Below are positions 9,686-60,109 of a DNA stretch of 64,000 nt, one piece after another. The notes under the pieces are model-generated. The model saw only the letters and a program-made list of their open reading frames with translations, did no database searches and was not told the DNA's origin. The stretch is from Mobula hypostoma (taxonomy: Eukaryota), in assembly GCF_963921235.1 (NCBI RefSeq), contig NC_086107.1, forward strand, positions 109,432,001 to 109,496,000, given 5' to 3'. The stretch's first letter is position 1. Every line of letters starts with the position of its first letter. The position numbers and the translations under genes were made by a program.

Positions 9686-9921
9686 CGTAAACACAAAATA
9701 ATCTGCAGATGCTGGGGTCAAAGCAACACTCACAACACGCTGGAGGAACTCAGCAGATCGGGCAGCACCTGTGGAAACGAACAGTCAACATTTCAGGCTG
9801 GAACCCTCTGCCCCTTCCCTCTTCAGTCCTGATGAAGGGTTCCGGCCCGAAACGTTGACTAATCGTTTCCACGGACGCTGCTCAACCTGCTGAGTTCCTC
9901 CAGCATCCTGTGGGTGTTGCT
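9686..9921. mobile_element. Fold-back Penelope pLTR mini-element with 13-bp TSD and a hammerhead motif (+, 9825-9860)
   Basis: Inverted arms. TTGAATACTGAAT at 9673-9685 and 9922-9934. Motif AGTC-CTGATGA-AGGGTTCCGGCCC-GAAA-CGTT-GACT. Confidence 0.85.
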
Positions 9922-10574
9922 TTGAATACTGAATAACATGTATTCTCTCCAGGGCTAATGCATCCTTCCTAAGGTACGGTACCAGAACTAATCAATGTAG
10001 AAGGTGGTGGGGTTGTGTTGTTCTCCAATCTTGGCAATTTACTTGCAAATGTTTCATGACCATGCAAGGAGACACTGTCAGTGGGCAGTTGATTGTGGTA
10101 TGTCCTCCAAATGCGTGGCCTTTATTTTCATTTCAATCAGCCAATTGGACGTCATTTCAGAAACTCAAATGTGATGTAGGGAAGAAATCTCATTGCTGAT
10201 TGGCTGTGTGGCAAACTTTGCAAGATAGGTTGCTGGAGGTAGGAGACCTAGAACAGACTGGATGGGCTGAATGGTCTCATGTTCCTAGCCCCTTATAATT
10301 ACTCATCAATCAAAAGAGTTGGAGACGACTTCTTTCCAAGAAGGCATGTGTGTTCACTGTGTCCAGTTCCTTAGCCAAAACTGCCAAAACAAAGAATGAT
10401 CATATCAGTGTAGCTTCTCACCCAGTGAGCACTGATCACTTCCCAGTCTCTTGGTCTGTGATTTTTGTGGGTTACGGTGGATCTAAGGTTCATGTACCTG
10501 TTTTTTAAATGTCACAAGGAGTTCTGCTTCCACCACCTTTTCAGTGAGTTTGGAATTGTCTTCAGATGATCTTT

Positions 10575-11075
10575 TGTGTTAATGGAAACTCACACCTATC
10601 AGGAATCACACCTTATTGTAATGGCATATGACAGGTGCCATGATGGGGATCAGATCCTGCCTCCCAAACCTGTTTTAATTAAAAAGTTCACCAGGGTTCT
10701 AAACGATTTAACCATCCCTGTCTCAGGTGCCAGAATATCCTGCAAACTAGGCACCCCAGATTTACCCAATAATTGCCTAAACAGCTTCCTGTGTTCCAAC
10801 AGAGTATCTGCGGCGCACCATGATCACGCTCCACTGTCTCTGGGACCTTACAAAGATCACATCAAGTGTTCCCATGCTTACCAACAAGTGCCAAAGTGGA
10901 GTGCAACCCCCTGTGTCCTAACCTCAGTCTTGCCAACCACACATCTTCCCTCCTATTCCTTCCAAAAAGGCGCCTCTCCTGAACTGATGGAAACAAATTG
11001 TAATACCATCTCCCTGCCACACAATTTCTGCTACTTCCCAAACCCAGCCAACCTAATACAAGATCTGGTCAAGTT
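10575..11075 (-). mobile_element. I-group (Nimb/I-like) LINE 3' fragment
   Basis: The minus strand translates roughly RLGHRGLHSTLALVGKH..CDLCKVPETVE.VIMV.RRY..LVNFLIKTGLGGRI*, a C-terminal Zn-knuckle region typical of RNase H-bearing LINEs. Confidence 0.65.
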
Positions 11076-12426
11076 GCCCAGTGGCTAACGTGACTCTGTG
11101 AAATTGATTAGTTAAGACACTTCCCCCATTCCTTTTTCCCTCTTACACCTTCTCTCCTTACCTGCCCATCACCTCCCTCTGGTGCTCCTCCCCATTCCCT
11201 TTCTTCCATGGTCTTCTACCCTCTCCAATCAGATTCCCTCTTCTCCAGCCCTTTATCTCTTTCACTAATCAACTTCCCAGCCCTTTACTTCACCCACTCC
11301 CGTCTCCCGGTTTCACCTATCACCTCTTACCTCTCACCTCGTACTTTTCCCTCTCCTCCCCCCACCTTCTTGCTCTGACCTCATCTTTTTTCCAGTCCTG
11401 AAACATGAATGGGGAATGGTGAAGGTGGTGGTGGGGGTGGGGGTGGGGGTGGGGGGGGGAAACGGTGGTGGGCAATTACCAGAAGTTCAAAAAAATCGAT
11501 GTCGGAGGCTACCCAGATGGAATATAAGGTGTTGCTTCCCCAACCTCATGGTAGTAGAGGCGGCCATGGACGCATATTAATCGCCGTGGTTTCTTCCAGA
11601 AATAACAGTCGCATGTCAGAACATGAGATCTCATCCCTCCACACCCGCAACCACCATTACTTTATCATTTCCTGTCAGTCACCTTATGTACAGACACTCC
11701 TGTGCCCAGCATCACCTTATGGAGAAGAGAGTAGACCATAGGAGAAAGGGAAGGAGGAGGGGAATCAGGGGGAGGTAATAGGCAGGTGAAAAGAGATAAG
11801 AGACCAGAATGGAGAATAGAAGAGAGGAGGGGGAGGGGAAAATCTTCCTTTACCTGATTGAAGGGAAAAAAATTGATATTCATACCATCAGGTTGGAGGG
11901 TACACAGACAGAATTATGGTGTTGCTCCTCCATCCTGAGAGTGGCCTCATCTTGGCCCAAGAGGAGCCTATAGACCATCTTTTTTTTATTATTGTGTTTT
12001 TATTTTGTGCTGCATCAGATCCGGAGTAACAATGATCTTATTCTCATTTACACTTGTGTACTGGAAATGACATGAAACAATCTTGAATCTCGAAAATGGA
12101 GGTGGACACCAGGCCCTCCCAACCTGCCCCTGACTGGCTGATCTGTGCTGTCTGAGCTCTCTGATTGTGAGAGTTCACCTGTCCTTTCAGGTGTTTATCC
12201 CTCTCCACCTGAAATGTGGAGGCTGATACATTAGGGACATCATGGATGAAAGAAAAATGGGGGATTATGGGCTGTGTAGGACGGAAGGGTTAGATGGATA
12301 AAAGGTTAAAAGGGCAGCACAGCATTGTAGGCCGAAAGGCCTGCACTGTGTGGTACTGTTCTATTTTAAATAAATCCAATATTCTGGAATCCCCCACCCT
12401 CTGAGGCAGAGACATTCAGTACCCAC

Positions 12427-12519
12427 TTGAGAGAAAAATCTCTGCACAACGCGCATATAAAAGAACTGTGCCGGGTATCGGCTCGATTGTGAGAACGCGA
12501 CAAGTGGGCAGGCGGCCAT
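12427..12519 (-). CDS. Putative first coding exon of an unidentified gene (presequence-like peptide MAACPLVAFSQSSRYPAQFFYMRVVQRFFSQ)
   Basis: ATG at 12519 lies inside a YY1-like AAATGGCCGCC. 31 codons with no acidic residues, then CAA|GTGGGT donor. Directly downstream of a CpG promoter. Confidence 0.5.
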
Positions 12520-12830
12520 TTGGTAGCGCGGTGAATCGATTGGGCTCGCGCTCTTTGACCGCGTGGGCTTTCAAGTGCGCATGCGTTTGATAGAACTTCT
12601 GATTGGGCTTCTGACGCGCGGACGGCTCGCGCTCTTTGGCCGCGCGGGCTTTCAAGCGCGTGTGTGTATCGCCTCGGTGGGGGCCCGGCTTGCCACTCCT
12701 GCGCTCGGCGTATGTCTGTGTGTGTGTGTGTGTGTGTGTGGTTACTAACGCGATTCAGTTAAAAACATTTACTAATACGGCTCCAACGTCGTTCTTGCTC
12801 TGCGCATACGTAACACGGATAGCGTCTTGT
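12505..12830 (-). promoter_or_regulatory. CpG-rich housekeeping-type promoter
   Basis: NRF1-like TGCGCATGCG at 12576-12585. CCAAT boxes on minus at 12538-12543 and 12601-12606. YY1-like motif at about 12511-12521. 37-bp direct repeat (12543-12579 and 12624-12660). Dense unmutated CpGs. Confidence 0.7.
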
Positions 12831-13098: not shown

Positions 13099-14133
13099 TC
13101 ATTGGCGTGAGATTTCAGCCCCCGAGACAGTTACGATGCATTGCTGGTGCCCATCGCCCCGAGTGCCAGCTCTTCCCTTTATCCCGCACCGCACGTCCTG
13201 GATAACCAGCCTGAGCCTGGTATCAAAGGTCTTCTGCAGGTACTTGTACAAGATGGGCATGGCACACGTGCTCAGGTAGGCCAGCAGTTCGCAGGCGCCC
13301 CGCAGGAAGTGAAGCCGGTTGACGAAGCGGCCCCCGCCCTCGGCCCGCGTGACGAAGTGGGCGGTGCTCACCAGCAGCGCCAGGTTGTAGGGCAGCCAGA
13401 GGGCGAACTGCACCAGGACCGTGGCCAGCAGCAGCCTCTGGGCCGGGGGCTCCGGCCGGTGGGGCCCCGTCAGCCACAGCGGCCGGCGTTTCCGCAGGAT
13501 GAGGCCAAGCGCGCAGCCCACGCCCACGGCGGGGACCAGGAAGCCGGTGAAGAACATGATGGCGTCCCCCAGCTCCTTGGTCTGCAGCTGCGAGCAGTCA
13601 TGGGTCTGGTCAGAGATTTTGTTGCAGATGTAGAAGAGGAGGGAGGAGAAGCTAGCCAGCGCCGCTCCCCCCCAGACGAAGGTGCAGACGTGCTTGGTAT
13701 TGTAGACGCTGGACATGTAGGTGTGGGGCAAGGCTTGCTCGATGAAGCAGTCCAGGCTCAGCAACGTGGCCGAGTAGATGCTCACCAGAGCCGCCATGTT
13801 GAAGAGGATGAAGGAGCCCATGCAGACCTCTCGGCCGAAAGCCCACACCGGCCACAGCAGGTGGTCGGGGCTGAGGAGTTGCAGGAAGGCCACCAGGTTA
13901 AGTATCAAGCCAGCCAGTGCCATGTTGGTGAAGTAGACGTCCGGCATGTTGATGGACAGTTTGTGGCGAAGGTTGACGACGAGGACGAGGACGTTGAAGG
14001 TGAGGCCCAGGGGGAAGCAGACCAGAAGGTAGGCCGTCGAGGCCACGGACAGGAGCAGGCCAACGTTCTGGCAGAGGTCGTCTCCACACAGCGTGCCATT
14101 AGGTCCAAGGTTCCCCTGAATGCAGCTCCACAT
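13099..14133 (-). CDS. GPR146: GPR146-family class A orphan GPCR, intact 344-aa ORF
   Basis: Family motifs MWSC, MPDVYFTNMA, TYMSSVYNTKHVC, GGAALASFSSLLFYIC and seven hydrophobic segments. Candidate acceptor ttttaatcttgcttgcag ends at 14240. It may be a paralog rather than the 1:1 ortholog. Confidence 0.92.
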   Translation of the reverse strand: MWSCIQGNLGPNGTLCGDDLCQNVGLLLSVASTAYLLVCFPLGLTFNVLVLVVNLRHKLSINMPDVYFTNMALAGLILNLVAFLQLLSPDHLLWPVWAFGREVCMGSFILFNMAALVSIYSATLLSLDCFIEQALPHTYMSSVYNTKHVCTFVWGGAALASFSSLLFYICNKISDQTHDCSQLQTKELGDAIMFFTGFLVPAVGVGCALGLILRKRRPLWLTGPHRPEPPAQRLLLATVLVQFALWLPYNLALLVSTAHFVTRAEGGGRFVNRLHFLRGACELLAYLSTCAMPILYKYLQKTFDTRLRLVIQDVRCGIKGRAGTRGDGHQQCIVTVSGAEISRQ

Positions 14134-14266
14134 CGCAGCGAGGATCAGGCCAGAGCCGTCAGCAGGATGAGGCTGGAAGCCTCATCAAACGGAAGCGGAG
14201 CTTGTGGAGTGGAAACCATCAGTCATGTTGTCCAGAAATCTGCAAGCAAGATTAAAATATATAACT

Positions 14267-14477
14267 CAAACAACAGGAATTCTGCAGATGCTGGAAATTC
14301 AAGCAACACACATCAAAGTTGCTGGTGAACGCAGCAGGCCAGGCAGCATCTGTAGGAAGAGGTGCAGTCGACGTTTCAGGCCGAGACCCTTCGTCAGGAC
14401 CTGAAACGTCAACTGCACCTCTTCCTACAGATGCTGCCTGGCCTGCTGCGTTCACCAGCAACTTTGATGTGTGTTGC
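14267..14477. mobile_element. Fold-back Penelope pLTR mini-element (80-bp inverted arms) with 15-bp TSD
   Basis: Arms 14301-14380 and 14400-14479 match at 79/80 with a 19-nt loop. TTAAAATATATAACT at 14252-14266 and 14478-14492. Confidence 0.92.
14366..14401 (-). ncRNA. Minimal type-I hammerhead ribozyme motif
   Basis: GGUC-CUGACGA-AGGGUCUCGGCCU-GAAA-CGUC-GACU: stem I, conserved core, stem II and the palindromic ACGU in place of stem III. Confidence 0.75.
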
Positions 14478-14779
14478 TTAAAATATATAACTAGCTGGTT
14501 TTAAGATTCAAGATTCAAATGTATTTAATCACATGTGCTGTATGTGTTGGCGTTAACAACCTACACGACTGGTGGTGTTCTAGGGGCAGGCAACAAGTGT
14601 CGCCACACATTCCGACGCCAACATAGCATGCCCACGATGCCTGGCCAAACATCTGCAAAGCAAGCGCCATTTCCCCCTCCCGCGCACGTACACACGCACT
14701 CCTCCAACCCGAGGTCAGGCTGGCTTTAGCCTCCAGTGAACTCAGACTCAAGCTCACCGATATTGGGCCTTCAAATCAC

Positions 14780-20318: not shown

Positions 20319-22061
20319 ACCCCTTTAGGTCAAGGCCCTTCATCAGGACTGGAAAGTGGGGGGGGAATGAATTCAGAATTAGGAAGTGGGGAGGCAGGGG
20401 AAGGAATACCATCTGGGAGGTGATTGGCGGAAGAGATGAAGGGCTGATGAAGAAGGGATCTGACAGAAGAGAAAGCTGTCCTTCAGCCTGGTTGTCACAT
20501 GCTTTCAAACTTTCATATCTTCTGCCCAATGGGGAGGGCAGAAGGGAGAAATTCCAGGGGTGGGAGCGGTCCACGACTGCAGTACGTTTGCTGCTTTTCC
20601 AAGGGAAGTTGGGATAAGCACATGGTTAGGTGGGGCAGTTATGGTTATGGTTATGGCAGTGATGGTTAGTTATGGTCCAGGCGCAGGTCAATGGGAACAG
20701 GCAGAATAGCAGTTCATCGCAGCTCACACAAAACGCTGGAGGAACTGAGCAGGTCAGGCATGGAAGGGCATAAACAGTCGAGACCCTTCATCGGGACTGG
20801 AAAGGAAAGAGGAAGACACCAGAATCAAAAGATGTTTGGGGGGAAGAGAAGGAGGCCAAGCTAGAAGGTGATGGGTGAATCCAGGTGGGTGGGAGTAACA
20901 GTTCGGCGCAGACTAGGTTGGCTGTGGCACTCTCTGAATCCATGACTCTGGTTCAAAGTTCAAAGTACAAACGTGTACATTTGTTATCAAAGTACGTATA
21001 CATTATACAACCTTGAGATCCGTCTCCTAACAGGCAGCCACAAGAAACCTGAAAGAACCCATTAAAAAAAGACCAACAAACACCCAATGCGCAGAGAGGA
21101 GAAAAACACCGATCGTGCGAACAATAAAAGCAAGCAGCAGCATTCTGAACGAACTTGAGTCCAGAGACACGAAGCCCAGAGCAGGCCCACAGCCTCAGCT
21201 TCAGTGCAACGAAGAGCCGAGCAAACGTCGCTGGCAGTGACCCTCACCCCTAGTCCAGACAGGGATGGTCAAATATTAATGGCGATTTCAGAAGTTTCTG
21301 TGGAAAAGGAGGGCCACTAAGAGCTGGAAAGGGAGCGACTGACTTTTCAGTTTTGAAGTTGGTGATTGGTTATACTAACATTTCAACATTTTATGAATTG
21401 TATCCATGATTCGGAACTCATGATGCAAGAGTGTCCGTATTTGACGATGTCAGGGGGGGCTCAATTAAACTTTACTGAACAGATCTGACAATCCACACCA
21501 ACAAGAACCAACGTGAATAGAGAGAGGGCATGGTGAATGGACCAGGAATGGGCAGGTGGTTGGTGAAGAAAGCATAGGTTAGAAAAGAGGAACATCTCTT
21601 CATGTCGTTATAATCTGGATCGTTGCTTCAAGAAAGGAATTGAATAGATCCTGGAGGTAGGTGGAAGGAGAGAGAATGAGTGGATGAAATACCGAAACGT
21701 GAACAGACTCTGACACTGACAAACAGCCGGCAGCCTATTTTGTCCACACCAGTCAAAACCAGGTGATCTGGCTCTGCAATACTCTACACACAAAATGCTG
21801 GAGGAACGCAGCATTTCGAAAAAGAGTACAGTTAACCTGTCCTGCCGAAGGGTTTTGGCCCGAAACATCAACTGTGTTCTTTTCCTACATGCTACCTGGC
21901 CTGCTGAGTTCCTCCAGTTTAACAAACATGGGAGATTCTGCAAATGTGGGAAATCTGGAGTAACACACACAAAATGTTGGAGGAACTCAGCAGGTCAGGC
22001 AGCATCTATGGAGAGGAAAAAAGAGTTGATGTTTCAGGCCGACACCCTTAAATAGCTGTGC

Positions 22062-22485
22062 TTAATCTTCCGTCCTTGGACTCACTTTACACCGCACGCT
22101 GTCGGAGCAGTGCTGCCAGGATAATCAAGGACACGACCCACCCAGCCAACACACTTTTCATCCCTCTTCCCTCCGGGAGAAGGCTCAGGAGCTTGAAGAC
22201 TCGTACGACCAGATTTGGGAACAGCTTCTTTCCAACTGTGAAAAGACTGCCGAACGGATCCTGACCCGGATCTGGGCCATACCCTCCAAATATCCGGACC
22301 TGCCTCTCAGTTTTTTTGCACTACCTTACTTTGCATTTTTCTATTTTCTATTTATGATTTATAATTTAAATTTTTAATATTTACTATCGATTTGTAATCC
22401 AGGGAGCAGGAAGCGCAGAATCAAGTATCATTGTGATGATTGTACGTTCTAGTATCAATTGTTTGGCGACAATAAAGTTAAAGTA
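22062..22485 (+). mobile_element. Rex1/Babar-like LINE 3' end (same family as 51120-52362)
   Basis: NLPSLDSLYTARCRSSAARIIKDTTHPANTLFIPLPSGRRLRS..NSFFP. The 3' UTR matches the 51.1-52.4 kb copy. Confidence 0.85.
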
Positions 22486-23768
22486 TTGCTCAGATTTCTA
22501 GCATCTGCAGATTTCCTCTTGTTTGTGATTTGGCGCCTTGTCCATAGCTGATCACAGTTCTTCCAGCATGCCCTCAAGTACCTTTGTTCTAGATAGGAGC
22601 AGAGGTTTCTGTCCAGCTCCCTTGCAAGCACCAAGTACCAGACCGATACCACCTCTGGCACGAAAACGGTCAGGATGCCACAGCAGCGTAGCAGTTAGCG
22701 GGATGGTATAGCAGCTCAGGACGTTCCGGAGTTTGGTATTCAGTTCCAGCGCCGTCTACGAGGAACTTGTACGTTCTTCCCGTAAACCACGTGGGTTTCC
22801 TCCAGGTGCTCTGGTTTCCTCCCACAGACCAAAAACGTTTCAGTTAATGGGTTAACTGGTCTTTGTAAATTGACCTGTGATTAGGCTGGGGTTAAATCGG
22901 GAGTTACTGGGGGGTGCGGCTCGTTGGGACAAAAGGGCCTGATTCACGCTGTATCTGTAAATTTTTAAAAAAACCGATCAATATTGTGCTCATCTCCTCT
23001 GCTCTTGCAGGAGCTAGAGCAGCCTCAATGGGCCGAACAGCCTCCTTCAGGTATCATGATTCTGTGAGTGGCCCGTACCGTTGAACGTTAGTCCCACTTC
23101 ACACTTCTTTTTCTCCCTAAGGAGATTGTCAAAGGCCCGAATCCATAGAGGCAAAGGAATAAAAGACTGAATTAAATTTTCACAGAAGTGCACTTGTAAA
23201 GAAAATTAAAAGCTAGAAAACAGTCAGTGCTTTTTTCCCTGTTGGCAGAGCAACATGTTGTTGTGAGTCCCTTGACTCGTTCAATAGCTCTTTCTTTCGA
23301 TTTGCTTCTCACATCCCAGGGTAGTGCTGGTCTCCAAGGCCGTCCTCCCATTCACACGGGCTCAGACAAAGGGAGCAGGGCTGCATCTTGAGCAGCCTCC
23401 AGAAGCTGAACAACCCGTCGGCCGGGCGAGTGGGTTCCAAGATCAGTAAGTGGAATCATCCTCACAATAACTCTCGGGAAGACTCGTTTCACAGTGGAGT
23501 CAAGGACCTCACAATGGATTGCTTTATTAGCTCTAATTATTCCTCGAGTCGGAACATCTCTGTGTTTACTAACTCACACGAAATGCCGGAGGAACTCAAG
23601 TTGGTCTGGCAGCTGAAGAAGGGTCGCGACCCGAAACGTTGACTCTTTATTCCTCTCCATAGATGCTGCCTGACCTGCTGGGTTCCTCCAGCATGTTGTG
23701 TGTGCTACTCTGGATTTCCAGTATTTGCAGAATCTCTCGTGTTTATTAAACTAGGATGGGACAGCGCT

Positions 23769-27620: not shown

Positions 27621-29086
27621 ACAATTTTAAGGAACCATCATCATCCCATGGGATGGATAGCCAGAGAGATGTACGTTTGTATATGTACAAGAGCTTCCTC
27701 TCTACTGCCCGTTACACTGCAGGTGTGTAGGGCAGCGGTGAAGGTCCTTCATTCTGGTGGTGTTCAGGGCTTCCTTCATCGTGTCAGTAGCTCGGTTTTC
27801 ACTACTGTCAGTAGAGATTCTGGAATACCCCATCGCACTCAGATGTAGAAGGGCTCTTCATTGCTACAAGAGCTTCTAGGTTTTTCCAAATGCTAACACG
27901 AGAAATTCTACAGACGCTGGAAATCCAGAGCAACACACACAAAACGCTGGAGGAACTCAGCAGGTCAGGCAGCACCTATGGAAATGAGTGAACAGTCGAC
28001 GTTTCGTGCCGAGACCTTTCTACAGGACTGGGAAGGAAGGGGGGAGACGCCAGAATAAAAAGGTGGGAGGAGGGGAAGGAGGCTGGCTGGAAGGTGATAG
28101 GTGAAGCCAGGTGGGTGGGAAAGGTCAAGGGCTGGAGAAGAAGGAATCTGATAGGACAGGAGAGTGGACAATAGGAGAAGGGGAAGGATGAGGGGATCCA
28201 GTGGGAAGTAATGCACTGGTGACAAGTAAAAGGTCAGAGTGGGGAAAAGAAGAAGGGGGAGGAATTTGTTCACCAGAAGGAGAAATCGGTACTCATGCCA
28301 ACAGATTGGAGGTTACCCATATGGAATACAAGGTGTTGACCCTCTACACTGAGGGTGGGCTCATCTTGGCACAAGGGGAGGCCATGGACCGACCCGTTGA
28401 AACGGGAATTAAGACATTTGAAAGCCCCGCCTGTGGCTGTTGGTGTGGAGGTGCTCGATGGGTCTCACCAAAGCAGATAGCAAATGCTGATGTACTGGGC
28501 CGTGTACCGTGCTGTAATCAGGATGTCGCTTTGTGTTCCAAGCCAATTGGTCTTCAGTGAAATTTCAGGACGTGCCTCAGTGTTCTGAGCCAGCTGCTCT
28601 CCAGTGTAAACCGCGTGCGCTCCACAGCACAGGGACAAGGCAGGTCATGCATGTAGCGGAAGATTTCTAATTCCTTCCGATGCATTTGCTGTGCAGAAGC
28701 CGTGCTAACTATATATAGCTCACATCTATCCTCAGGGAATTATTGAATCATGAGGCTCAGAAACAGGACCTTCAGCCCATCGAGTCCACACTGACCACCA
28801 AGCACCCATTCACACGGAAGGCTGAGCAAGCCAGGGGCTTTTCTCTTTGGAGTGAAGGAGGATGACAGGCATCTTGAGAGAGGTGTGTGAAATGAAAAAA
28901 GGCAGGGGTGTCAAAGGCCAATACCGTAGTGATAGCTAACAGAGTTATACCTCTACCGCTCAGTTATCCACCCCCCACATGGGAAGAGTTCACATACTGT
29001 ACCCACAGGGCTGTCAGCTGAATATCCTGTAGTCCAGGTGTCCTTAGTAACAAAGACAACAAATACCAGTGGATATCCTATTAAGT

Positions 29087-35400: not shown

Positions 35401-36423
35401 CATGATCGCTCGTAGTAGCGCGATCACTCGAGTCGAGTATAATGTTCCCCTAAGGGGTTATGTATTGGTGGGCCCTCAGGCAACTGTGGAGGTCGACCCG
35501 GGATCCATACACTCTGGAATAATGTGGGCCAGACCTCACAATCCTGCCCCCTTTGCCACTCGCTGATGGCAACAGGACTTAATCCGGGATGTTAGGGTGG
35601 AATCCTTAGCGTACCAGCCACCTGGGTTCAATCCCTGCCCTGCCACTGGCTGCGTGTTCTCCCCGTGACCGTGTGAGTTTCCTCCGGGTGCTCTGGTTTC
35701 CTCCCACAGTCCAAAGACGTACCGGTTGGTAGGTTAATTGGTCATTGTAAATTGTCCCGTGATTAGGTTAGGATTAAATCTAGGGAATTGCTGGGCGGCA
35801 TTTATGTAACATGGGAAGGCTGGTGCATGGGCAGCACCTCACTGTCCTTGACAGATCAGGTCAGAGTCCAGTAGCATGGAGACCCTGGGAACTCTTCACC
35901 TCTGCATCCTTCCTCCGCCTTCACTGTGTCATCTTCCGCCATGGTTAGATGGCTCCTGGTCTGGAACCTGACCTTTGACTTTACCGCCATGGGTGACCCT
36001 ACCAGGAGCTAAGCTCGAGACATCTTCGCTCTCAGGATCTCACAAGCCCCTCCACCACGACAAGGTGACCATCTCTGGAGAAGTGCGGACTGAGCTTTGG
36101 CTCCTGTCAGACTGACAGCCATAACGTGAGAGTGAGCGTGTCTGTTCAGTCAGACACGAGCTCTGGTTTGCTGCCAGACTAACCCTGTACAAGCACCCAC
36201 CTCACTCAGCAGCAGGGCAAATCCAGGAAAACAAACATACACGTTCCACAATTGCCTCCACAATCCCCTGTTGACAAAGGGATAGAGTCGTAGTCTTAAA
36301 CACAAGAGACGCTGGAAATCCAGAGCAACACACTCAAAATGTGGGAAGAGCTCAGCAGGTCAGGCAGCATCTGTGGATGGAAATTAACAATTGATGTTCT
36401 GATGAAGGGTCTCAGCCCGAAAC

Positions 36424-37025
36424 GACCTACTTACTGCCTGTTACACCACTGGCATTTAGGGCAGCAATCAATGTCCATAAGACCATGACATAGGAGCAGA
36501 ATTAGGCCATTCAGCCCACTGAGTCTGCTCTGCCAATGTCTTCCATCTCTGGTGGTGTTCAGGGCTTCTTTCATCATGAGCTTCCTCTTGGTTTTCGCTA
36601 CTGTCAGTCATGCAAGTCCCAGGTGGAGACTCAGGAATACCATCACACTGAGATGCAGATAGTTTCTTCATTGCTGTTTCCGTAACAATTATTTCTGACC
36701 CATCAGGGTTGTTAGCCCTGAGCTGAACCCCCAAACCTGGAGGGCTGGTGGACCTGGAGGTCTGGCCTCTACCCTTTGACCTGCTTGGCATGGGTGACCC
36801 TACCAAGAGCTAAAGCACAATGCCCTGACTCCAATCACAAGCAAGAGGAAGCCTGCAGATGCTGGAATTCCAAGCAATACACACAAATGCTGGAGGAACT
36901 CAGCAGACCAGGCAGCATCTATGGAAAAGAGTATGGAAAAGAAAAGACTTCAGTCAACGTAGCTCTCTGGGTCATTGAGCCACACGAGCCTCTGAACCAA
37001 GACAAGGTTGTTGTCCTCTTGGAGA
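36424..37025 (-). mobile_element. RTE-related non-autonomous element inserted into a Penelope hammerhead; itself carries CR1 and PLE fragments
   Basis: 12-bp TSD TCAGCCCGAAAC at 36412-36423 and 37026-37037. The head accttgtc..ggct..tgtg..aatgaccc is shared with copies at 35800-36083, 41490-41767 and 31998-32088. Confidence 0.7.
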
Positions 37026-37997
37026 TCAGCCCGAAACATCGACTGTTTATTCCCCTCCATAGTCTGATGTTCTGAGTTCCACCAGCATTTTAGGTTTGTT
37101 GGTAGAGATCTAGTCTAAAACTAGGGATATAATGCTGAGGCTCTACAAGACATTGGTCAGACTGCATTTGGAGTATTTCTGAGCAGCTTTGAACCCCTTT
37201 TCTAAGAAAGTATGTGCTGGCATTGGAGAGGGTGCAAAGGAGGTTCACAAGAACAACCCTAGGAATAAAAGGGTTAATGGGTGAGGAGCGTTTGACGTCT
37301 CTGGACCTGTACTCACTGAAATTTAGAAGAATCAGGGAAAATCACATTGCAACCTTTTGAATATTGAAAAGCCTAGAGAGAGTGGACATGGAGAGGAGGC
37401 TTCTAATCGTCGGGGAGTGTAGGGCCAGAGGGCACAGTCTTAGAATAGAAGGAGGTCCCTTTAGAACAGAGATGAGGAGGAATTTCTTCAGCTAGAGGGT
37501 AATGAATCTGTGGAATTCATTGCCACAGACGGCTGTGGAGGACAATTCACCAGGTATAGTTAAATCGGAGGCTGGCAGGTTCTTGATTAGTAAGGGCATC
37601 AAAGGTTACGGGGAGAAGGGAGGAGAATGGGGTTGAGAGGGATAGTAAATAAACCACGAATGGCGGAGCAGACTCAACGGGCCGAATGGCCTAATTCTGC
37701 TCTATTTCTTTACGATCCCCCTCCTTTTCCAGGAGGAAGCACACGACTTTACTTCCAAGGCTAATTAAGCGTCGATTCAGCTATTCCACCTCGGAGAGCA
37801 TCACAGCCCGCGGTCCTCGCTCACAAAGAGTTCTCTCTTCACAAGGTTCTGATGGACACTTAAAAACCTTCAGTAGACACTCATTTTCTTTGTGATAAAT
37901 GCAAGGGCATAAAATCTAGAGCACATTCCAAAAATTACTATTCCTATTGTCAAAGCACTGTATGGAAAAAAAGAGGAAATTGTATTATACACCGTAC

Positions 37998-38520: not shown

Positions 38521-40297
38521 TTTTAACATACGCACATTATAGCGTGTTCCTTCTCTCGCACGTTCATATAGAACCATCAAGTATAGAGATCATCGGAATC
38601 AGATTTATTATCACGAATCGATATAACGTGAAATGCGTCCTGCAGCATCAAGACAGCGTAAAGTTTCTACTATTTGCAAATATAGCGCAAAACAAAAGGG
38701 ACAACTCCGTGGAATCTGATGGCAGAGCGGGTTAAAAAGCCGTTTCTGAATCCATTGAGTGTGTGTGCCTGCAGGCTCCGGTACCCCCTTCCTGATGGTA
38801 GGAATGAGAAGAGGGCACGTCCCGGGCGGCGAGGGTCCATAGTGATGGATGCTGCTTCGCTGAGGCACCGCCTCTTGTAAGTGTCCTTGATGGTGGGGAG
38901 GGTTGTGCCCGTGGTGAAAGCTGGCGGAGTTTACAACCCTCCACAGCCTCCTGTGATCCCGTGCGTTGGCACTTCAGTGCCCGGCGGTGATGCCTACAGC
39001 CGGACCGCTCTCCGCCGTACATCGGCAGCAATTTTGTACAAACCTTTTGGAGACTTCATCAGAGAAAGGTTTTACCGTCTCTTTGATCGGAATCAGATTC
39101 AGGTTTATTAACACTGACAAATGTTGTGAATTTTATTGTTTAATAGCAGTACAGAACAATAAATAAGAAAGTATATGATTTACAATAAGAATACATTAAT
39201 CCCTTGATAGTTTACAACCTCGGCAGGTTTTCCGTCCCTCCGTACCCGGCGCTTGTACAACCGGCCAGAAGGCTCTCCCGGTACAAATGTAGGAATTTGC
39301 TCCAGACTTTGGTGGCATGCCCAATCTTCTCAAACTCTCAGTGAAATCTAGCTGCCATGCCTTCCGTGATGGAGATGGCTGAGTTTTTACAGTGCTCCGC
39401 GATCCCGCACATTGGCCCCCTCCGTACCAGACGGCGGTGCCACTGGTTCGAATGCTCTCCCGGTGAAATCTGCAGAAATTCGCTAGAGCATTGGCGGTTC
39501 TTCATGAAATCTAGCTGCCATGCCTGCTTTGTAATTGGATCAATACGCTGGACCCAGGGTAGATCTTCAGAGACCCAGGAACCTGAAGCTGCTCACCTTG
39601 AAGATGACTGATGTACGTTCTCGCGATTTCCCCCTTTATCTCCACCTCCAGAGCCCTTCACAGATTTTACTCCCTGAGAACTGACAGCCCCTCCCCGGAT
39701 GACCAGTGAGCCTGGCCACTGTAAAGCGGTAGTCATGTCTGTTAAACCCGATAAAGTTTTCTGAATCGCTACCAACTTGCACATCTTTGGGATGTGCGAG
39801 GAATCCGGAACGCGCGGGGGAATTCCACGCAGTCACAGGGGTGGGGGGGGGGGGGGGGTGGAACGTGCAAACTCCACGCAGACGGGAGGATCGAACCCGG
39901 GTCCCTGGAGTTGTGAGGTGTTGGCTCCACCGGTTGAATCAGAACAGGTTTAATATCACCGACTTGTCATGAAATCTGTTATTTTGCGGAAGAAGTCATT
40001 GCAATACATAGAATATATTATGAATCTCAAGTGATGCTCTGTCTTAATTTGGAGAAGATTAACTTTTGAACTTATGTTTGATTTTGAGAAAGGATGGGGT
40101 TCATTTGCTCGTTATTATCATTTGGGTTAATTGATAGATTTCCTCCACGATCTAACTGTAAATTTTTGGTACATTTTTTTTCTTGCTGGCGGTTTGATGC
40201 TTATCATTAGAAGCTTTTTTGTATGACGCATGGCTCCGGGGTTGAACACCTAATGCGTTTTTTTTCTCACTTTTCCTTGCTCAGTAGGGTTTTTTTT

Positions 40298-40660
40298 CAA
40301 GCAACACATAAAAGTTGCTGGTGAACGCAGCAGGCCAGGCAGCATCTCTAGGAAGAGGTGCAGTCGACGTTTCAGGCCGAGACCCTTCATCAGGACTAAC
40401 TGAAGGAAGGGCTAGTAAGAGATTTGAAAGTGGGAGGGGGAGGGGAGATCCAAAATGATAGGAGAAGACAGGAGGGGGAGGGATGGAGCCAAGAGCTGGA
40501 CAATCTGTTACTAGCCCTTCTTTCAGTTAGTCCTGACGAAGGATCTCGGCCTGAAACGTCGACTGTACCTCTTCCTAGAGATGCTGCCTGGCCTGCTGCG
40601 TTCACCAGCAACTTTTATGTGTGTTGCTTGAAATTCCAGCATCTGCAGATTTCCTTGTGT
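40298..40660. mobile_element. Fold-back Penelope pLTR mini-element with two hammerhead motifs (- 40362-40397; + 40529-40564)
   Basis: Arms of about 128 bp (40297-40424 and 40502-40631). Flanked by TAGGG(T)8C at 40285 and TAGGG(T)10C at 40661. Confidence 0.9.
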
Positions 40661-40789
40661 TAGGGTTTTTTTTTTCTCTTTTTTTGTCACCAAAATTTTT
40701 TCAATCTTTAAAACAATGTTTTTTTCTTGAGACATTTTAAGTGTTGCCTACTTCGATATACTCTTGTTAATTTTGGATAATAATAATAG

Positions 40790-54378: not shown

Positions 54379-54417
<39 letters not shown>

Positions 54418-54632: not shown

Positions 54633-54663
<31 letters not shown>

Positions 54664-55020: not shown

Positions 55021-55065
<45 letters not shown>

Positions 55066-55706: not shown

Positions 55707-57902
55707 GTAAGACCATAAGACAGGCGAACAGAATTAGGCCATTCAGCCCATCGAGTCTGCTGCTCCATTTAATTGTGGCTGATTTGGTTTTCTTCTCAAC
55801 CCCACTCTCCTGCCTTTGACACCCTTAATAATCAAGAACCTAGCGACTTCCGCTTTAAATATACCTAATGACTTGGCCTCCGCACCCGTCTGGCAATGAA
55901 TTCCGCTGATTCACAACCCCTCTGGCGAAAGAAATCCCTCCTCATCTCTGTTCTAAAGGGACCCCCTTTCGAGGCTGTTCCAGCGGGTCCAGGTCTTGCT
56001 GCGAGCCATGACAGCCTTCCTCACTGTCCACTACACCCCCAGTCTTGGAGTCACCCGCAAATTTGCTGATCCATTAACCACATTGTCATCCAGATCGTTG
56101 ATATCGATGTCAAACCACAAAGGACCTGGCACCGATTCCTGTGGCACACCACCAGCCACTGGCCTCCAATCAGAGAGGGAACCGTCTACCGCCACTCTCT
56201 GGCTCCTCCCACAAAGCCAATGTCTAATCCAATTTACCACCTCGTGGTTGAAAGTGTGAATGGGAGGATTAGCAAACTTGCAGAGGATACCAAGAGTTGT
56301 GGATAGCGGATAAGACCCACAAAGAACACAGCACGATATAGATCAGTTGCAGACGTGGGCAGAGAAATGGCAGCTGAAGTTTAACCCAGATGAGTTGCAC
56401 CTCGGCAGGGCAAATGCAAGGAGACAGAAAGGGCAAGTTTTGGTGAGCAGAGCGACCTCGGGATCCAAGTTCGCAGCTCCTTGAAAGTGGCTACACAGGT
56501 CGATAAGGCTGATGGAACGCTCGCTTTTATTAGTCGAGGCATTGAGTTCAAAGGTCAGGAAGTTATGTTGCAACTTTATAAAACTCTGGTTAGGCCACAT
56601 CTGGAGTATTGCATAGAGTTCTGTTCACCCCACTGTAGGAAGGATGTTGAGGCTTTGGAGAGGGTGCAGAAGAGGTTTACAAGGATGCTACCTGATTTAG
56701 AGAACTTAGAATTCTCCTTCGCCTTGTCTACTAGAGCAAGCTTACGCCTTCTTTTAGCACTCCTGATTTCTTTCTTAAGTGTTCTCTTGCATTTCTTATA
56801 CTCCATAAGCACCTCATTTGTTCCTACCTGCCTATACCTGCTATATGCCATTTTTTTTCTTAACCAGGGCCTCAATATCTCTTGAAAACCAAGGTTCTCT
56901 AAACCTATTATCTCTATCTTTTATTCTGGCAGGCACATACTTGCTTTGTGCTCTCAAACTTTCACTTTTGAAGGTCTCCCACTTACGAAGTACACCTTTG
57001 CCAGAAAACAATCTGTCCCAATCCACACTTGCCAGATCATTTCTGATACTGTCAAAATTGGCCTTTCTCCAATTTAGAATCTCCGGCCACAGACCAGACC
57101 TATCTCTTTCCATATTTACTTTGAAACTAATGGCATTGTGATCACTGGTTGCAAGGTGATCCCCAACACAAACTTCTGTCACCTGCCCTGTCTCATTCCC
57201 TAATAGCAGATCAAGAATCACACATTATCTCATCGGGACTTCCATGTACTGATTAAGGAAACTTTCCTGAGCTCATTTGACAAACTCTATTCCATCTAGT
57301 CCTTTTACAGTATGGGAGTCCCAGTCTATATGTGGAAAGTTAAAATCACCTACTATGACAACCCTATGTTTCTTTCAACAGTCTGTCATCTCTTTATAAA
57401 TTTGTTCCTCTTAATCCCTCAGACTGTTGTGTGGTCTGTAATATAGCACCATTAACATGGTCATACCTTTCTTATTTCTCAGTTCTACCCATAACGCCTC
57501 GCTAGATGAGTTCTACAGTCTGTACTGACTGAGCACTACCATGACATTTTCCCTGACTAGTAACCCCCTATCTTCCTTTAATCCTTCTCACTCCATCGTG
57601 TCAAAGACAACGGAACCCTGGAATATTGAGCTGCCAATCCTGCCCCTCCTGCGACCAAATCTCACTAATGGCTACAGTGTCATAATTCCAGGTGTTGAAT
57701 TGGAACACCTGGAGCTCATCCGCCTTTCCTACGATACTACCTGCATTGAAATATACGCAGCTCAGAACACTGGTCTCACCATGCTCGACCTTTTGATTTC
57801 TGACTTTGTCTGAGGTCTTACCAACATCTGCCTCCACAACCTCTCCACTATCTGTTCTGGCCCTCTGTCGCCCGTCCCCCTGCAATTCTAGTTTACTAGT
57901 TT

Positions 57903-60109
57903 GCTGTTGTAGTCTGGCGTACTGACCTCTACCTTGCCGAGGCACAGCGACAACTCGCGGATACCTCCTCTTATTTACCCCTCGATCGTGACCCCACTAA
58001 GGAGCACCAGGCCATTGTCTCCCACACTATCAACGACTTTATCCGCTCAGGGGATCTCCCTTCCACTGCTACCAACCTTATAGTTCCCACACCCCGCACT
58101 TCCCGTTTCTACCTCCTACCCAAGATCCACAAACCTGCCTGTCCTGGCCGACCTATTGTCTCAGCTTGCTCCTGCCCCACCGAACTCGTTTCTGCATACC
58201 TCGACACTGTTTTATCACCCCTTGTTCAATCCCTTCCGACCTATGTTCGTGACACTTCTCACGCTCTTAAACTTTTCGATGATTTTAAGTTCCCTGGCCC
58301 CCACCGCTTTATTTTCACCTTGGATGTCCAGTCCTTATATACTTCCATCCCCCATCAGGAAGGTCTCAAAGCTCTACGCTTCTTTTTGGATTCCAGACCT
58401 AATCAGTTCCCCTCTACCACCACTCTGCTCCCTCTAGCAGAATTAGTCCTTACTCTTAATAATTTCTCCTTTTGCTCCTCCCATTTCCTCCAAACTAAAG
58501 GTGTAGCTATGGGCACCCGTATGGGTCCTAGCTATGCCTGCCTTTTTGTTGGCTTTGTGGAACAATCTATGTTCCGTGCCTATTCTGGTATCTGTCCCCC
58601 ACTTTTCCTTCGCTACATCGACGACTGCATTTGCGCTGCTTCCTGCACGCATGCAGAACTCGTTAACTTTATTAACTTTGCCTCCAACTTTCACCCTGCC
58701 CTCAAGTTTACCTGGTCCATTTCTGACACCTCCCTCCCCTTTCTAGATCTTTCTGTCTCTGTCTCTGGAGACAGCTTATCCACTGATGTCTACTATAAGC
58801 CTACTGACTCTCACAACTATCTGGACTATTCCTCTTCTCACCCTGTCTCTTGCAAAAACGCCATCCCCTTCTCGCAATTCCTCCGTCTCCGCCGCATCTG
58901 CTCTCAGGATGAGGCTTTTCATTCTAGGACGAGGGAGATGTCTTCATTTTTTAAAGAAAGGGGCTTCCCTTCCTCCACTATCAACTCTGCTCTTAAACGC
59001 ATCTCCCCCATTTCACGTACATCTGCTCTCACTCCATCCTCCCACCACCCCACTAGGAATAGGGTTCCCCTGGTCCTCACCTACCACCCCACCAGCCTCC
59101 GGGTCCAACATATTATTCTCCGTAACTTCCGCCACCTCCAACGGGATCCCACCACTAAGCATATCTTTCCCTCCCCGCCTCTCTCTGCATTCCGCAGGGA
59201 TCGCTCCCTACACAACTCCCTTGTCCATTCGTCCCCCCCATCCCTCCCCACTGATCTCCCTCCTGGCACTTATCCGTGTAAGCGGAACAAGTGCTACACA
59301 TGCCCTTACACTTCCTCACTTACCACCATTCAGGGCCCCAAACAGTCCTTCCAGGTGAGGCATCACTTCACCTGTGAGTCGACTGGGGTGATATACTGCG
59401 TCCGGTGCTCCCGATGTGGCCTTTTATATATTGGTGAGACCCGACGCAGACTGGGAGACCGCTTTGCTGAACATCTACGCTCTGTCCGCCAGAGAAAGCA
59501 GGATCTCCCAGTGGCCACATATTTTAATTCCACATCCCATTCCCATTCTGACATGTCTATCCACGGCCTCCTCTACTGTAAAGATGAAGCCACACTCAGG
59601 TTGGAGGAACAACACCTTATATTCCGTCTGGGTAGCCTCCAACCTGATGGCATGAACATTGACTTCTCTAACTTCCGCTAGGCCCCACCTCCCCCTCGTA
59701 CCCCAGCTGTTACTCATTTTTATGCACACATTCTTTCTCTCACTCTCCTTTTTCTCCCTCTGTCCCTCTGAATATACCTCTTGCCCATCCTCTGGGTCAC
59801 CCCCCCCCCCGTCTTTCTTCCCGGACCTCCTGTCCCATGATCCTCTCGTATCCCCTTCTGCCTATCACCTGTCCAGCTCTCGGCTCCATCCCTCCACCTC
59901 CTGTCTTCTCCTATCATTTTGCATCTCCCCCTCCCCCTCCAGCTTTCAAATCCCTTACTCACTCTTCCTTCAGTTAGTCCTGACGAAGGGTCTCGGCCTG
60001 AAACGTCGACTGCGCCTCTTCCTATAGATGCTGCCTGGCCTGCTGCGTTCACCAGCAACTTTGATGTATGTTGCTTGAATTTCCAGCATCTGCAGAATTC
60101 CTGTTGTTT
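57903..60109 (+). mobile_element. Young 5'-truncated Neptune-type Penelope-like element: open RT + Cys linker + GIY-YIG (57903-59681, about 592 codons) and 3' pLTR
   Basis: FYLLPKIHKP, DVQSLYTSIPH, GVAMGT, RYIDD, PCKRNKCYTC and VIYCVRCSRCGLLYIGET..RFAEH. Flanking duplication (GTTT)ACTAGTTT at 57891-57902 and 60106-60117. Confidence 0.95.
59976..60011 (+). ncRNA. Minimal type-I hammerhead ribozyme motif in the Penelope pLTR
   Basis: AGUC-CUGACGA-AGGGUCUCGGCCU-GAAA-CGUC^GACU, with predicted cleavage after 60007. Confidence 0.8.

What the first reader, a model, noticed from the sequence alone, without database searches (positions are those of the whole stretch)
9686..60109. Penelope system: an RT/GIY-YIG element plus short fold-back, hammerhead-bearing insertions with a shared architecture
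Seen: three 210-360 bp insertions (9686-9921, 14267-14477, 40298-40660) consist only of two inverted copies of the Penelope 3' terminal repeat and have TSDs of about 13-15 bp. In each, one arm keeps a ~30-nt tail (like aattccagcatctgcagaattcctgttgttt) while the other stops at nearly the same point (..gtgttgc(ttg)). All carry a CUGANGA..GAAA-CGUH motif with an AGUC/GACU-type stem I. The 14.3 and 40.3 kb copies are the same subfamily as the open-ORF element at 57903-60109. A decayed example lies near 23570-23745. Known: PLE pLTRs carry minimal hammerheads thought to act as dimers through a palindromic stem III, and PLEs produce inverted 5' pLTRs. Inference: these are extreme-truncation products or a non-autonomous class that seeds long ribozyme-containing hairpins across the genome. 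Differing loop junctions favour independent formation at each insertion.
Basis: partly seen in the sequence, partly recalled or inferred. Interest (0 to 1): 0.8.

Follow-up and report, generated by a model that had tools for sequence, protein, structure and literature searches.

The report
Hairpin-shaped stubs of Penelope retroelements
The short fold-back insertions are real: they are aborted, two-armed copies of the 3' end of a Penelope-like jumping gene, made anew at each insertion and very numerous in this genome, and they fit what is already known about how this element class inserts.

Summary
Observation confirmed. The window holds a 5'-truncated Penelope-like element (PLE; RT + GIY-YIG ORF 57900-59681, 3' end 60109) and three clean fold-backs (9686-9921, 14267-14477, 40298-40660). 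Each fold-back is made only of two inverted copies of the PLE 3' module, has a 13-15 bp target-site duplication and carries the ~35-nt 'tail' on one arm only. A fourth lies at 23570-23746, and decayed ones lie elsewhere.

The minimal-hammerhead descriptor hits 6 sites in the window against 0 in shuffles. Its 32-nt core occurs 38,636 times in the 3.48-Gb genome.

Genome data favour new formation at each insertion. The inner junctions vary. The exact junction of the 14.3-kb copy occurs only 30 times, on at least four sequence types, and the two arms of a copy agree with each other. Every interpretable fold-back has exactly one tail (16/16 and 7/7).

About a quarter of arms end within the 8 nt just 5' of the CUGA box.

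Best reading: both cut target strands prime cDNA from the two adjacent RT start sites described for a lizard PLE in 2024, and the two cDNAs are joined head to head.

Architecture, tail and ribozyme are already published, so this is a new member of a known kind. This scan earlier noted a head-to-head PLE 3'-module pair in a rotifer genome (e1-2578455).

The parts
57901..60109 (+). 5'-truncated Penelope-like element: ORF (RT + GIY-YIG) 57900-59681, 3' UTR, minimal hammerhead, tail. TSD about 8-12 bp (actagttt).
59980..60010 (+). Minimal type-I hammerhead core of the reference copy: CUGACGA, bulged A, helix II GGGU/GCCU, GAAA, palindromic ACGU, GUC. The predicted cut lies between 60007 and 60008. 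Stem I is UAGUC (59975-59979) with GACUG (60008-60012).
   Evidence: features compared
59972..59979 (+). Position in the reference copy of the 5'-end hot spot (8 nt just 5' of the CUGA box), where about 26% of genomic arms that carry the core end.
   Evidence: 52 of 200 rows, classified by eye
60075..60109 (+). 'Tail' of about 35 nt, present on one arm only of every fold-back. The sequence just before it (..GUUGC, 60070-60074) is where tail-less arms end.
9686..9921 (-). Fold-back 1 (older subfamily). The tail-bearing arm is 9686 to about 9808, read on the - strand. The tail-less arm is about 9809 to 9921 on the + strand; it reaches further in and carries the only complete hammerhead core (9829-9859 +). 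TSD 9673-9685 / 9922-9934.
14267..14477 (-). Fold-back 2 (young subfamily). The tail-bearing arm is 14267-14402 read on the - strand, starts at the hot spot and carries the complete core (14367-14397 -). The tail-less arm is 14403-14477 and starts inside the ribozyme at CCUGAAAC. TSD 14252-14266 / 14478-14492. As RNA it folds into an 80-bp hairpin of -180 kcal/mol.
40298..40660 (+). Fold-back 3 (young subfamily). The tail-less inverted arm is 40298-40502 and reaches 77-80 nt further in. The tail-bearing arm is 40503-40660. Both arms carry a core (40363-40393 -, 40533-40563 +). TSD 40285-40297 / 40661-40673.
23570..23746 (+). Fold-back 4 (old subfamily). A short inverted tail-less arm (23570-23612) is joined to a forward arm that starts at the CUGA box (23613) and runs to the tail.
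5498..5934 (.). Decayed inverted pair. The tail-bearing arm is 5498-5583 (-) and the tail-less arm is 5879-5934 (+), with about 300 bp of other sequence between them.
36836..37103 (.). Decayed inverted pair. The tail-bearing arm is 36836-36935 (-) and the tail-less arm is 37025-37103 (+), with a 90-bp spacer.
21786..22064 (.). Composite. An old fold-back (21786-21848 -, 21833-21917 +) is cut short at its 3' side and abuts a separate tail-bearing copy (21922-22064 -).
6379..6783 (-). Solo 5'-truncated copy of the young subfamily with tail (88% identity over 410 nt), followed by a remnant of the ORF end (6809-6993 -).
27892..28046 (-). Solo old-subfamily 3' module with tail.

Best explanation
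The fold-backs are abortive insertion products of Penelope-like elements, each made anew at its own insertion. They are not copies of a mobile hairpin.

Proposed course (inferred):
1. The element's RT/GIY-YIG protein makes a staggered cut in both target strands, which gives the 9-17 bp TSD.
2. Each freed 3' end primes reverse transcription inside the element's 3' module, one at the distal start site (the end of the tail) and one at the proximal site about 35 nt upstream (..GUUGC).
3. Both cDNAs are short. Many stop in the 8 nt just 5' of the hammerhead's CUGA box.
4. The 3' end of one cDNA then switches onto the other cDNA, with little or no homology. This gives two inverted arms whose inner junction differs from event to event.

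Shown here: the arms, the TSDs, the one-tail rule, the junction diversity, the agreement between the arms of a copy, and the hot spot.
Taken from the literature: cleavage and extension of both strands, and two adjacent internal start sites whose spacing equals the tail, both shown for a lizard PLE in vitro.
Inferred: that the two start sites are used one per strand in a single event, how the cDNAs are joined, and the cause of the hot spot. The hot spot could be a 5' end of the template RNA, such as a start of transcription in the repeat, or a place where the RT falls off.

The hammerhead is a passenger in these hairpins. As RNA the arms pair with each other and bury the ribozyme core.
For: Insertions, not duplications: 29 of 29 copies of the 211-bp type and 27 of 29 of the 236-bp type have their own flanks and direct repeats of at least 8 bp (medians 14 and 13; shifted control median 5).

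New formation at each event:
- Among 29 genomic copies fetched with the 14.3-kb fold-back, the tail-less arm's inner end falls at several positions. About 15 are a 'short' form, about 8 are a '+6' form and the rest are unique or flipped. The same junction types recur on at least four sequence types that are shared by both arms of a copy.
- Arm-to-arm identity within a copy is 96.9%, against 92.9% between copies. A copy's own arm is the best or tied-best match in 16 of 29.
- The exact 23-nt junction occurs 30 times in the genome, against 80,812 arms with the 16-nt core.
- The older family shows the same junction diversity.

One tail per pair:
- 16 of 16 interpretable inverted pairs in a non-targeted 337-kb sample.
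- 7 of 7 -/+ pairs in the first 4 Mb of contig 1.
- Solo copies are roughly half with tail and half without (about 27 against 24, my reading), so random pairing would give many same-type pairs.

Orientation: there are 8 -/+ pairs and 0 +/- pairs within 1 kb among the first 100 core sites. The sample has about 20 head-to-head pairs against 1 tail-to-tail pair.

Either arm can be the longer one: tail arm longer in 7, tail-less longer in 6, equal in 3. Flipped twins exist (L026; L032). This fits two independent cDNAs.

Hot spot: 52 of 200 core-bearing arms end in the 8 nt before the CUGA box, against 9 in the preceding 11 nt. Of the 52, 28 are joined to inverted-arm sequence, 21 to unrelated DNA and 3 are unclear (read by eye). 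The position relative to the core is the same in the 73%-identical older subfamily.

Literature: Frangieh et al. 2024 (PMC11167929, main text read) and Craig et al. 2021 (PMC8557442, passages).
Against: No experiment or read data here shows the intermediates. Frangieh et al. saw no difference in start-site use between the two strands in vitro, so the strict one-of-each rule needs an extra assumption, for example a protein dimer on one RNA. That assumption is untested.

The junction and hot-spot tallies were made by eye on 200 rows from the first 6-7 Mb of one contig. They cover only copies with an exact 16-nt core, which favours young copies.

The 29-copy sets were fetched with fold-back queries and are therefore biased towards the query's architecture.

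The tail test relies on exact matches, so a mutated tail would count as 'no tail'.

The recurrence of the same two break points in fold-back 3 and L032 has no explanation in this model beyond chance among very many events.
Confidence: 0.62

Rival explanations
1. Snap-back. A single cDNA is primed at the tail, its 3' end folds back on itself and copies itself, stopping about 35 nt short of the start. The second arm is therefore a copy of the first and lacks the tail.
For: This explains why the arms of a copy agree and why there is only one tail. In 25 of 29 copies of the 211-bp type the tail-bearing arm is the one that reaches the hot spot and the tail-less arm is shorter at the centre.
Against: It predicts that the tail-bearing arm is always the longer one. 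In the non-targeted sample the tail-less arm is longer in 6 of 16 pairs, as it is in fold-backs 1 and 3 of the window. Flipped twins exist. Many junctions in the older family are near-perfect palindromes with no loop, which is awkward for an intramolecular fold-back. The model gives no reason for the sharp stop at ..GUUGC, which matches a published second RT start site.
Confidence: 0.17
2. Non-autonomous hairpin family. One or a few fold-back masters are transcribed, and the hairpin RNA is copied as a unit by the PLE enzyme through its tail.
For: Searches with the 211-bp and 236-bp fold-backs return 40 of 40 scored hits at near full length, from 1130 and 4572 first-look candidates. One copy is 99.5-100% identical to the window's. 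The arm from the ribozyme to the tail contains the region that sufficed as template for the lizard PLE in vitro.
Against: The searches score only the best 40 candidates and so select look-alikes. The exact junction occurs only 30 times genome-wide, on at least four sequence types that are concordant between arms. A master model would then need repeated new formation anyway. Junctions in unselected rows are spread over about 80 positions. An RNA of this kind folds into an 80-bp duplex of -180 kcal/mol, which hides the start sites.
Confidence: 0.1
3. DNA-level origin. The fold-backs are MITE-like DNA transposons with terminal inverted repeats, or palindromes created by repair of breaks.
For: They are short, have inverted arms and are flanked by TSDs.
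Against: The arms are the PLE 3' module itself (72-98% identity). The ends are asymmetric, with a tail on one arm only. TSD length varies from 9 to 17 bp. Inverted pairs grade continuously into pairs of long ORF-bearing copies. No transposase is associated with them.
Confidence: 0.02

Closest known systems
Canonical EN+ Penelope-like elements (Penelope/Poseidon, Neptune) as described by Evgen'ev & Arkhipova and by Craig et al. 2021
   Same: A single ORF with RT and C-terminal GIY-YIG. Strong 5' truncation. An inverted 5'-truncated copy directly upstream. A 30-40 bp tail at one end only. A hammerhead motif in the terminal repeat. Variable TSDs.
   Different: Here both copies of the pair are cut down to 45-210 nt, so nothing but the 3' module remains. 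My searches of the held library found no paper that tabulates such mini-pairs, their one-tail rule or a truncation hot spot. Subscription papers are not covered.
PAc, the Poseidon element of the green anole (Frangieh et al. 2024, in vitro)
   Same: Both target strands are cut and extended. RT starts at two adjacent internal sites, and the tail is the stretch between them. The hammerhead lies about 70-100 nt upstream of the start sites, which is the same geometry as here. The ribozyme is not needed for insertion.
   Different: That work did not report joined inverted products and saw no strand preference for either start site. The genomic pairs here always combine one of each. In PAc the module overlaps the ORF start. 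Here the ORF start could not be examined, because no full-length copy was in hand.
Minimal hammerheads of metazoan PLEs (Cervera & de la Pena 2014; dimer activity in Lunse et al. 2017, seen only as a reference-list entry in the papers listed)
   Same: CUGANGA, an extra base between positions 9 and 10.1, a helix II starting with G, GAAA, a palindromic ACGU in place of helix III, and a 4-5 bp helix I.
   Different: The young subfamily has G-U instead of G-C at 10.1-11.1. Activity is untested. Inside a fold-back the core is buried in the arm duplex.
Twin priming of human L1 (5' inversions; Ostertag & Kazazian 2001, recalled)
   Same: The second target strand primes a second cDNA and the two are joined, which gives an inverted 5' part.
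   Different: In L1 the two cDNAs copy different parts of one RNA, so there is inversion without duplication. Here both arms copy the same 3' module and start at two defined sites.
Animal non-LTR retrozymes (Cervera & de la Pena 2020; Li, Clavereau & Pollet 2026 preprint, abstract and passages read)
   Same: Short, non-coding, hammerhead-bearing derivatives of PLE terminal repeats in vertebrate genomes, one cartilaginous fish included.
   Different: Retrozymes are head-to-tail tandems thought to spread through circular RNA. The elements here are head-to-head pairs, and the evidence is against their spreading as units.

Membership tests
Penelope-like element (EN+) | Reverse transcriptase domain of the PLE/telomerase-like kind | tested here: met
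   RVT_1 scores 27.7 bits, just under Pfam's 29.6 cut-off. There are 1003 homologues at E<=1e-20, many carrying RVT_1 plus PF28514/PF26215. The clade within PLEs was not determined.
Penelope-like element (EN+) | GIY-YIG endonuclease C-terminal to the RT in the same ORF | tested here: met
   GIY-YIG matches residues 496-570 at 20.7 bits (cut-off 22.6). Homologues carry PF01541.
Penelope-like element (EN+) | Pseudo-LTRs from partial tandem copies | tested here: inconclusive
   The window copy is 5'-truncated with no upstream repeat.
Penelope-like element (EN+) | Inverted 5'-truncated copy at the 5' side, and a 30-40 bp tail at one end only | tested here: met
   The definition comes from Craig et al. 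2021.
Minimal hammerhead of PLEs | Core CUGANGA ... GAAA with H at the cut site | tested here: met
   6 descriptor matches in the window against 0 in 100 shuffles. The 32-nt core occurs 38,636 times in the genome against 0 for the reversed control.
Minimal hammerhead of PLEs | Extra nucleotide between 9 and 10.1; G10.1-C11.1; palindromic 15.2-16.2; helix I of 4-5 bp | tested here: met
   Read. There is a bulged A. The 10.1-11.1 pair is G-C in 12 and G-U in 10 of 23 arms. ACGU is present. Stem I is UAGUC/GACUG. The feature list comes and the pair counts.
Minimal hammerhead of PLEs | Compensatory changes in helices I and II | tested here: inconclusive
   Helix II is 90% paired with only one-sided (wobble) changes. 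Stem I is 75% paired, with 3 pairs showing a double change in 1-2 rows. The covariation score is 0.116 against 0.111 in shuffles, and 110 of 500 shuffles reach it. The rows are decaying genomic copies, so this is a weak test.
Minimal hammerhead of PLEs | Self-cleavage (as dimer) | not testable with these tools
   Needs an in vitro transcription and cleavage assay.
Rfam hammerhead families | Score at or above the gathering threshold of a hammerhead model | tested here: not met
   There were 0 matches in the window at gathering scores. No hammerhead family appeared among E<=10 matches in 40200-40760. This is expected for a motif without helix III.
Non-LTR retrozyme | Head-to-tail tandem units, each with a hammerhead | tested here: not met
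   The fold-backs are head-to-head pairs.
MITE / fold-back DNA transposon | Symmetric terminal inverted repeats and a TSD of fixed length | tested here: not met
   One end carries an extra 35 nt. TSDs range from 9 to 17 bp.

The most novel reading that the evidence does not exclude
The sharp 5'-end hot spot at the edge of the hammerhead core marks a real 5' end of an RNA, either a start of transcription inside the terminal repeat or a processing site tied to the ribozyme. In that case the ~130-nt ribozyme-to-tail module would be a self-contained unit that is transcribed from tens of thousands of copies and re-inserted in trans. The roughly 10,000 perfect hairpins it leaves behind would, when transcribed, give long double-stranded RNA aimed exactly at the enzyme's recognition and start sites. 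That would be a built-in source of small RNAs limiting the element.
Probability: 0.12. Interest if true: 0.7.

Novelty: new member of a known kind. Interest (0 to 1): 0.42.

Why it matters
How Penelope-like elements insert is still poorly understood, and the first in vitro system dates from 2024. This genome holds on the order of ten thousand minimal two-armed insertion products. These can be read as a natural record of single insertion events: where cDNA synthesis starts on each strand, where it stops and how the two cDNAs are joined.

The strict 'one tail per pair' rule and the stop just before the ribozyme core are concrete predictions for that in vitro system.

For genome annotation, such hairpins are easily taken for MITEs or microRNA-like precursors. 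Rfam's permissive search did exactly that: its best hit on fold-back 3 was a plant microRNA family.

Tried and rejected
- Rfam found no hammerhead family, either at gathering scores over the whole window or at E<=10 on 40200-40760. The best hits there were chance matches of the hairpin to microRNA precursor models.
The unbiased sample is therefore only the window plus the flanks of 85 fetched loci (337 kb) and the first 100 rows of each pattern search.
- Leading N in a pattern is ignored, so only repeated.
- A hairpin CCUUCAG/CUGacGAAGG whose loop coincides with the hot spot is predicted in two subfamilies, but it folds no better than shuffles (z -0.18 and -0.85) and is absent in a third. It is kept only as a weak idea.
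- The RNAalifold consensus over 23 arms kept only one invariant 5-bp stem, UGCUG/CAGCA, around the start sites, with no covariation.
- Sequencing runs: no RNA holder is listed. All 22 runs are contigs of guessed kind.
- Laying four runs on 14050-14700 gave cover only on the repeat itself and none on the flanks. There is therefore no empty-site allele and no information on RNA ends.
- No copy with the N-terminal part of the ORF or a 5' repeat was present in the sample, so the position of the hot spot relative to a full-length 5' end could not be checked.
- Self-targeting by the endonuclease (new copies splitting old ones at TTAG) was considered for the hot spot. It was rejected because the sequence upstream of the break is inner arm sequence or unrelated DNA, not an element end.
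- Earlier scan notes: nothing on this genome. Two notes exist on other genomes, and one of them concerns a head-to-head PLE 3'-module pair.

Full report
WHAT IS THERE

The + strand of the window carries a 5'-truncated Penelope-like element (PLE) at about 57901-60109.
- It has an open 593-codon frame (57900-59681) with reverse-transcriptase and GIY-YIG endonuclease matches just under Pfam's cut-offs.
- It has 1003 homologues at E<=1e-20. The named ones come from rays and sharks (up to 94% identity). Many are 890-930 aa long with RVT_1 and GIY-YIG, so the window copy lacks about 300 N-terminal residues.
- A 428-nt 3' untranslated part follows. It contains a minimal hammerhead (59980-60010) and ends in a tail of about 35 nt (60075-60109).
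- It has its own short TSD and no inverted partner.

THE THREE FOLD-BACKS ARE AS DESCRIBED

Inverted arms of 90-121 nt with 83-96% complementarity were found at the stated places. TSDs of 13-15 bp can be read directly. In each fold-back one arm runs to the end of the tail and the other stops at ..gtgttgc(tt). The copies at 14.3 and 40.3 kb are 92-98% identical to the ORF-bearing element's end. The 9.7-kb copy belongs to an older subfamily (72-73%).

A hammerhead descriptor finds six sites in the window and none in 100 shuffles. Fold-back 1 has one complete core, in its tail-less arm. Fold-back 2 has one, in its tail-bearing arm. Fold-back 3 has one in each arm. 23570-23746 is a fourth fold-back with a 43-nt inverted arm.

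A profile of the module finds more decayed pairs at 5498-5934, 21786-21917 and 36836-37103, and many solo arms. Rfam's hammerhead models miss the motif, as expected for a ribozyme without helix III.

THE GENOME

The window lies in a 3.48-Gb assembly.
- The 32-nt core of the young subfamily occurs 38,636 times exactly, against 0 for the reversed control.
- The 16-nt core occurs 80,812 times.
- Searches with the 211-bp and 236-bp fold-backs returned 40 of 40 scored hits at near full length, from 1130 and 4572 first-look candidates.

At first sight this looked like two families of mobile hairpins. Closer reading argues otherwise.

All 29 fetched copies of the 211-bp type have different flanks and TSDs of 9-17 bp (median 14; shifted control median 5). 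When they are aligned with the tail at the 3' end:
- The tail-bearing arm starts at the same point, (A)GTCC just before CUGACGA, in 25 of 29.
- The inner end of the inverted arm varies: about 15 are a short form, about 8 are six bases longer, and the rest are unique or flipped.
- The two arms of a copy share one of at least four sequence types.
- The same junction recurs on different types.

Arms of one copy are 96.9% identical, against 92.9% between copies. The exact junction of the window's copy occurs only 30 times in the genome. The older family behaves the same way and often forms near-perfect palindromes in which both arms end at the CUGA box.

Fold-back 3 has one look-alike, 510 kb away. 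It has unrelated flanks, its own TSD, the same central junction in reverse complement, and the tail on the other arm.

RULES THAT HOLD IN UNSELECTED DATA

The non-targeted sample is the window plus the flanks of 85 loci, 337 kb in all. It holds 106 arms in 88 clusters.
- About 20 clusters are head-to-head pairs and one is tail-to-tail.
- All 16 pairs with readable ends have exactly one tail. Solo arms are about evenly split (about 27 with tail, 24 without; my reading of that table).
- Among the first 100 core sites of contig 1 there are eight -/+ pairs within 1 kb and no +/- pair.
- Of seven -/+ pairs whose two arm ends both match exactly, all seven have the tail on one arm only.
- Either arm may reach further in: tail arm in 7, tail-less arm in 6, equal in 3.
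- Inverted pairs also occur between long, ORF-bearing copies, so the short fold-backs are the small end of a continuum.

A TRUNCATION HOT SPOT

I read by eye the 19 nt upstream of the core in 200 rows, the first 100 of each of two complementary patterns.
- 139 continue as in the full element.
- 52 break within the 8 nt before the CUGA box. Of these, 28 are joined to inverted-arm sequence, 21 to unrelated DNA and 3 are unclear.
- 9 break in the 11 nt further up.

So about a quarter of arms that reach the ribozyme core end right there, and more than half of those are fold-backs. Scaled to 80,812 cores, this means on the order of 10^4 fold-backs of this kind. The inverted partner's inner end is spread over about 80 positions. 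The ribozyme's own cut site (between 60007 and 60008 in the reference copy) is not the hot spot. One arm in the sample starts exactly there (L003).

HOW IT MOST LIKELY WORKS

Craig et al. 2021 describe PLE insertions with an inverted 5'-truncated copy and a 30-40 bp tail at one end.

Frangieh et al. 2024 showed for a lizard PLE that the purified protein cuts and extends both target strands. They also showed that reverse transcription starts internally at two adjacent sites, that the tail is the stretch between those sites, and that the hammerhead is dispensable for insertion in vitro. In what I read, that paper does not link these facts to inverted genomic copies.

The pairs here fit a simple combination of these findings. 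One target strand primes at the distal site and the other at the proximal site. Both cDNAs are short. One switches onto the other. This explains:
- the one-tail rule;
- the sharp outer ends;
- the agreement between arms (same template population at one event);
- the variable junctions;
- the occurrence of both polarities.

A single snap-back cDNA explains the first and third points. It does not explain the six pairs, and fold-backs 1 and 3, in which the tail-less arm is longer.

The strict one-of-each rule is not predicted by the in vitro data, which show no strand preference. It suggests that one protein dimer uses both sites of one RNA, which is inference.

The cause of the hot spot is open. 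It could be a 5' end of the template, for instance a transcription start in the repeat, or RT fall-off. A local hairpin whose loop coincides with the hot spot is predicted, but it is no better than chance.

THE RIBOZYME

The motif has the published hallmarks of PLE minimal hammerheads: a bulged base after position 9, a helix II opening with G, a palindromic ACGU and a 5-bp helix I. On 23 diverged arms:
- helix II is 90% paired and stem I 75%, against 32-46% for slid controls;
- changes are almost all one-sided;
- the covariation score does not exceed shuffles.

As RNA, fold-back 2 forms an 80-bp duplex of -180 kcal/mol (z -25.6) that buries the core. The ribozyme is best seen as a passenger in these hairpins.

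COMPARISON AND NOVELTY

Element class, terminal hammerhead, inverted partner and one-sided tail are all in print. My searches of the held library found no paper that describes these minimal pairs, the one-tail rule as a count, or the hot spot. Subscription journals and Repbase are not covered.

I file it as a new member of a known kind, with a useful mechanistic reading. This scan had earlier noted a head-to-head pair of PLE 3' modules in a rotifer.

LIMITS

- There are no experimental data.
- The run search listed only contigs of guessed kind. Laying four of them covered nothing but the repeat.
- The two main tallies rest on 200 rows read by eye and a 337-kb sample.
- No full-length copy was seen.

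Noticed in passing
window 40298-40660 and L032:1501-1862: Two independent fold-back insertions, with different flanks and TSDs, share the same pair of inner break points. Their central junctions are exact reverse complements and the tail is on opposite arms. There is no obvious microhomology at the junction. L026 relates in the same way to the 'short-form' 211-bp copies.
   Followed up: partly
window 36396-36426 (+), next to 36298-36421 (-): A 28-nt arm runs only from the hot spot to the predicted hammerhead cut site (ends ...GAAACG) and is then followed by unrelated DNA. It could be a trace of a ribozyme-cut RNA end. It is a single decayed case and no TSD was found.
   Followed up: no
window 60047-60094 region of the reference copy (about 60041-60088): A three-part stem-loop is predicted around the two presumed RT start sites (UGCUG/CAGCA, GUUCA/UGAAU, AGCAAC/GUUGCU). 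The tail supplies the 3' strands of the two lower stems. The outer stem is 92% paired and nearly invariant across 23 arms. The apical stem changes register between subfamilies. It may correspond to the 'AC-rich stem loop' of the lizard element.
   Followed up: partly
window 57601-57899 and 60110-60476 (- strand): The PLE sits inside another retroelement. On the - strand there is a GDSL-lipase/esterase-like ORF (60111-60476; Pfam 32.5 bits against a cut-off of 32.9) on one side and a further open frame (57601-57996) on the other, as in LINE elements with an esterase ORF1.
   Followed up: partly
window 40382-40543: Rfam's permissive search scores the fold-back hairpin as a plant microRNA precursor (MIR1858, 34.8 bits, E 0.0003; gathering score 137). 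This is an example of how such hairpins can be mis-annotated.
   Followed up: no
window 23540-23570 and 23735-23760: The left flank of fold-back 4 (tctctgtgtttactaact) resembles the tail end plus the right flank (tctctcgtgtttattaaact). It looks as if a few bases of tail were present at both ends, or as if the insertion was next to an older tail.
   Followed up: no
G000 contig 1, about 5927974-5928465 and 2960797-2961247: Same-strand copies of the core or arm end lie 430-460 bp apart. They are short head-to-tail tandems of the 3' module, which is the arrangement called a pseudo-LTR or retrozyme-like. Only coordinates were seen, not sequence.
   Followed up: no
window 7655-8033 (-) and 28279-28392 (-): Further diverged PLE ORF remnants (44-58% identity to the C-terminal third of the 593-aa ORF) show older PLE lineages in the same window.
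   Followed up: no
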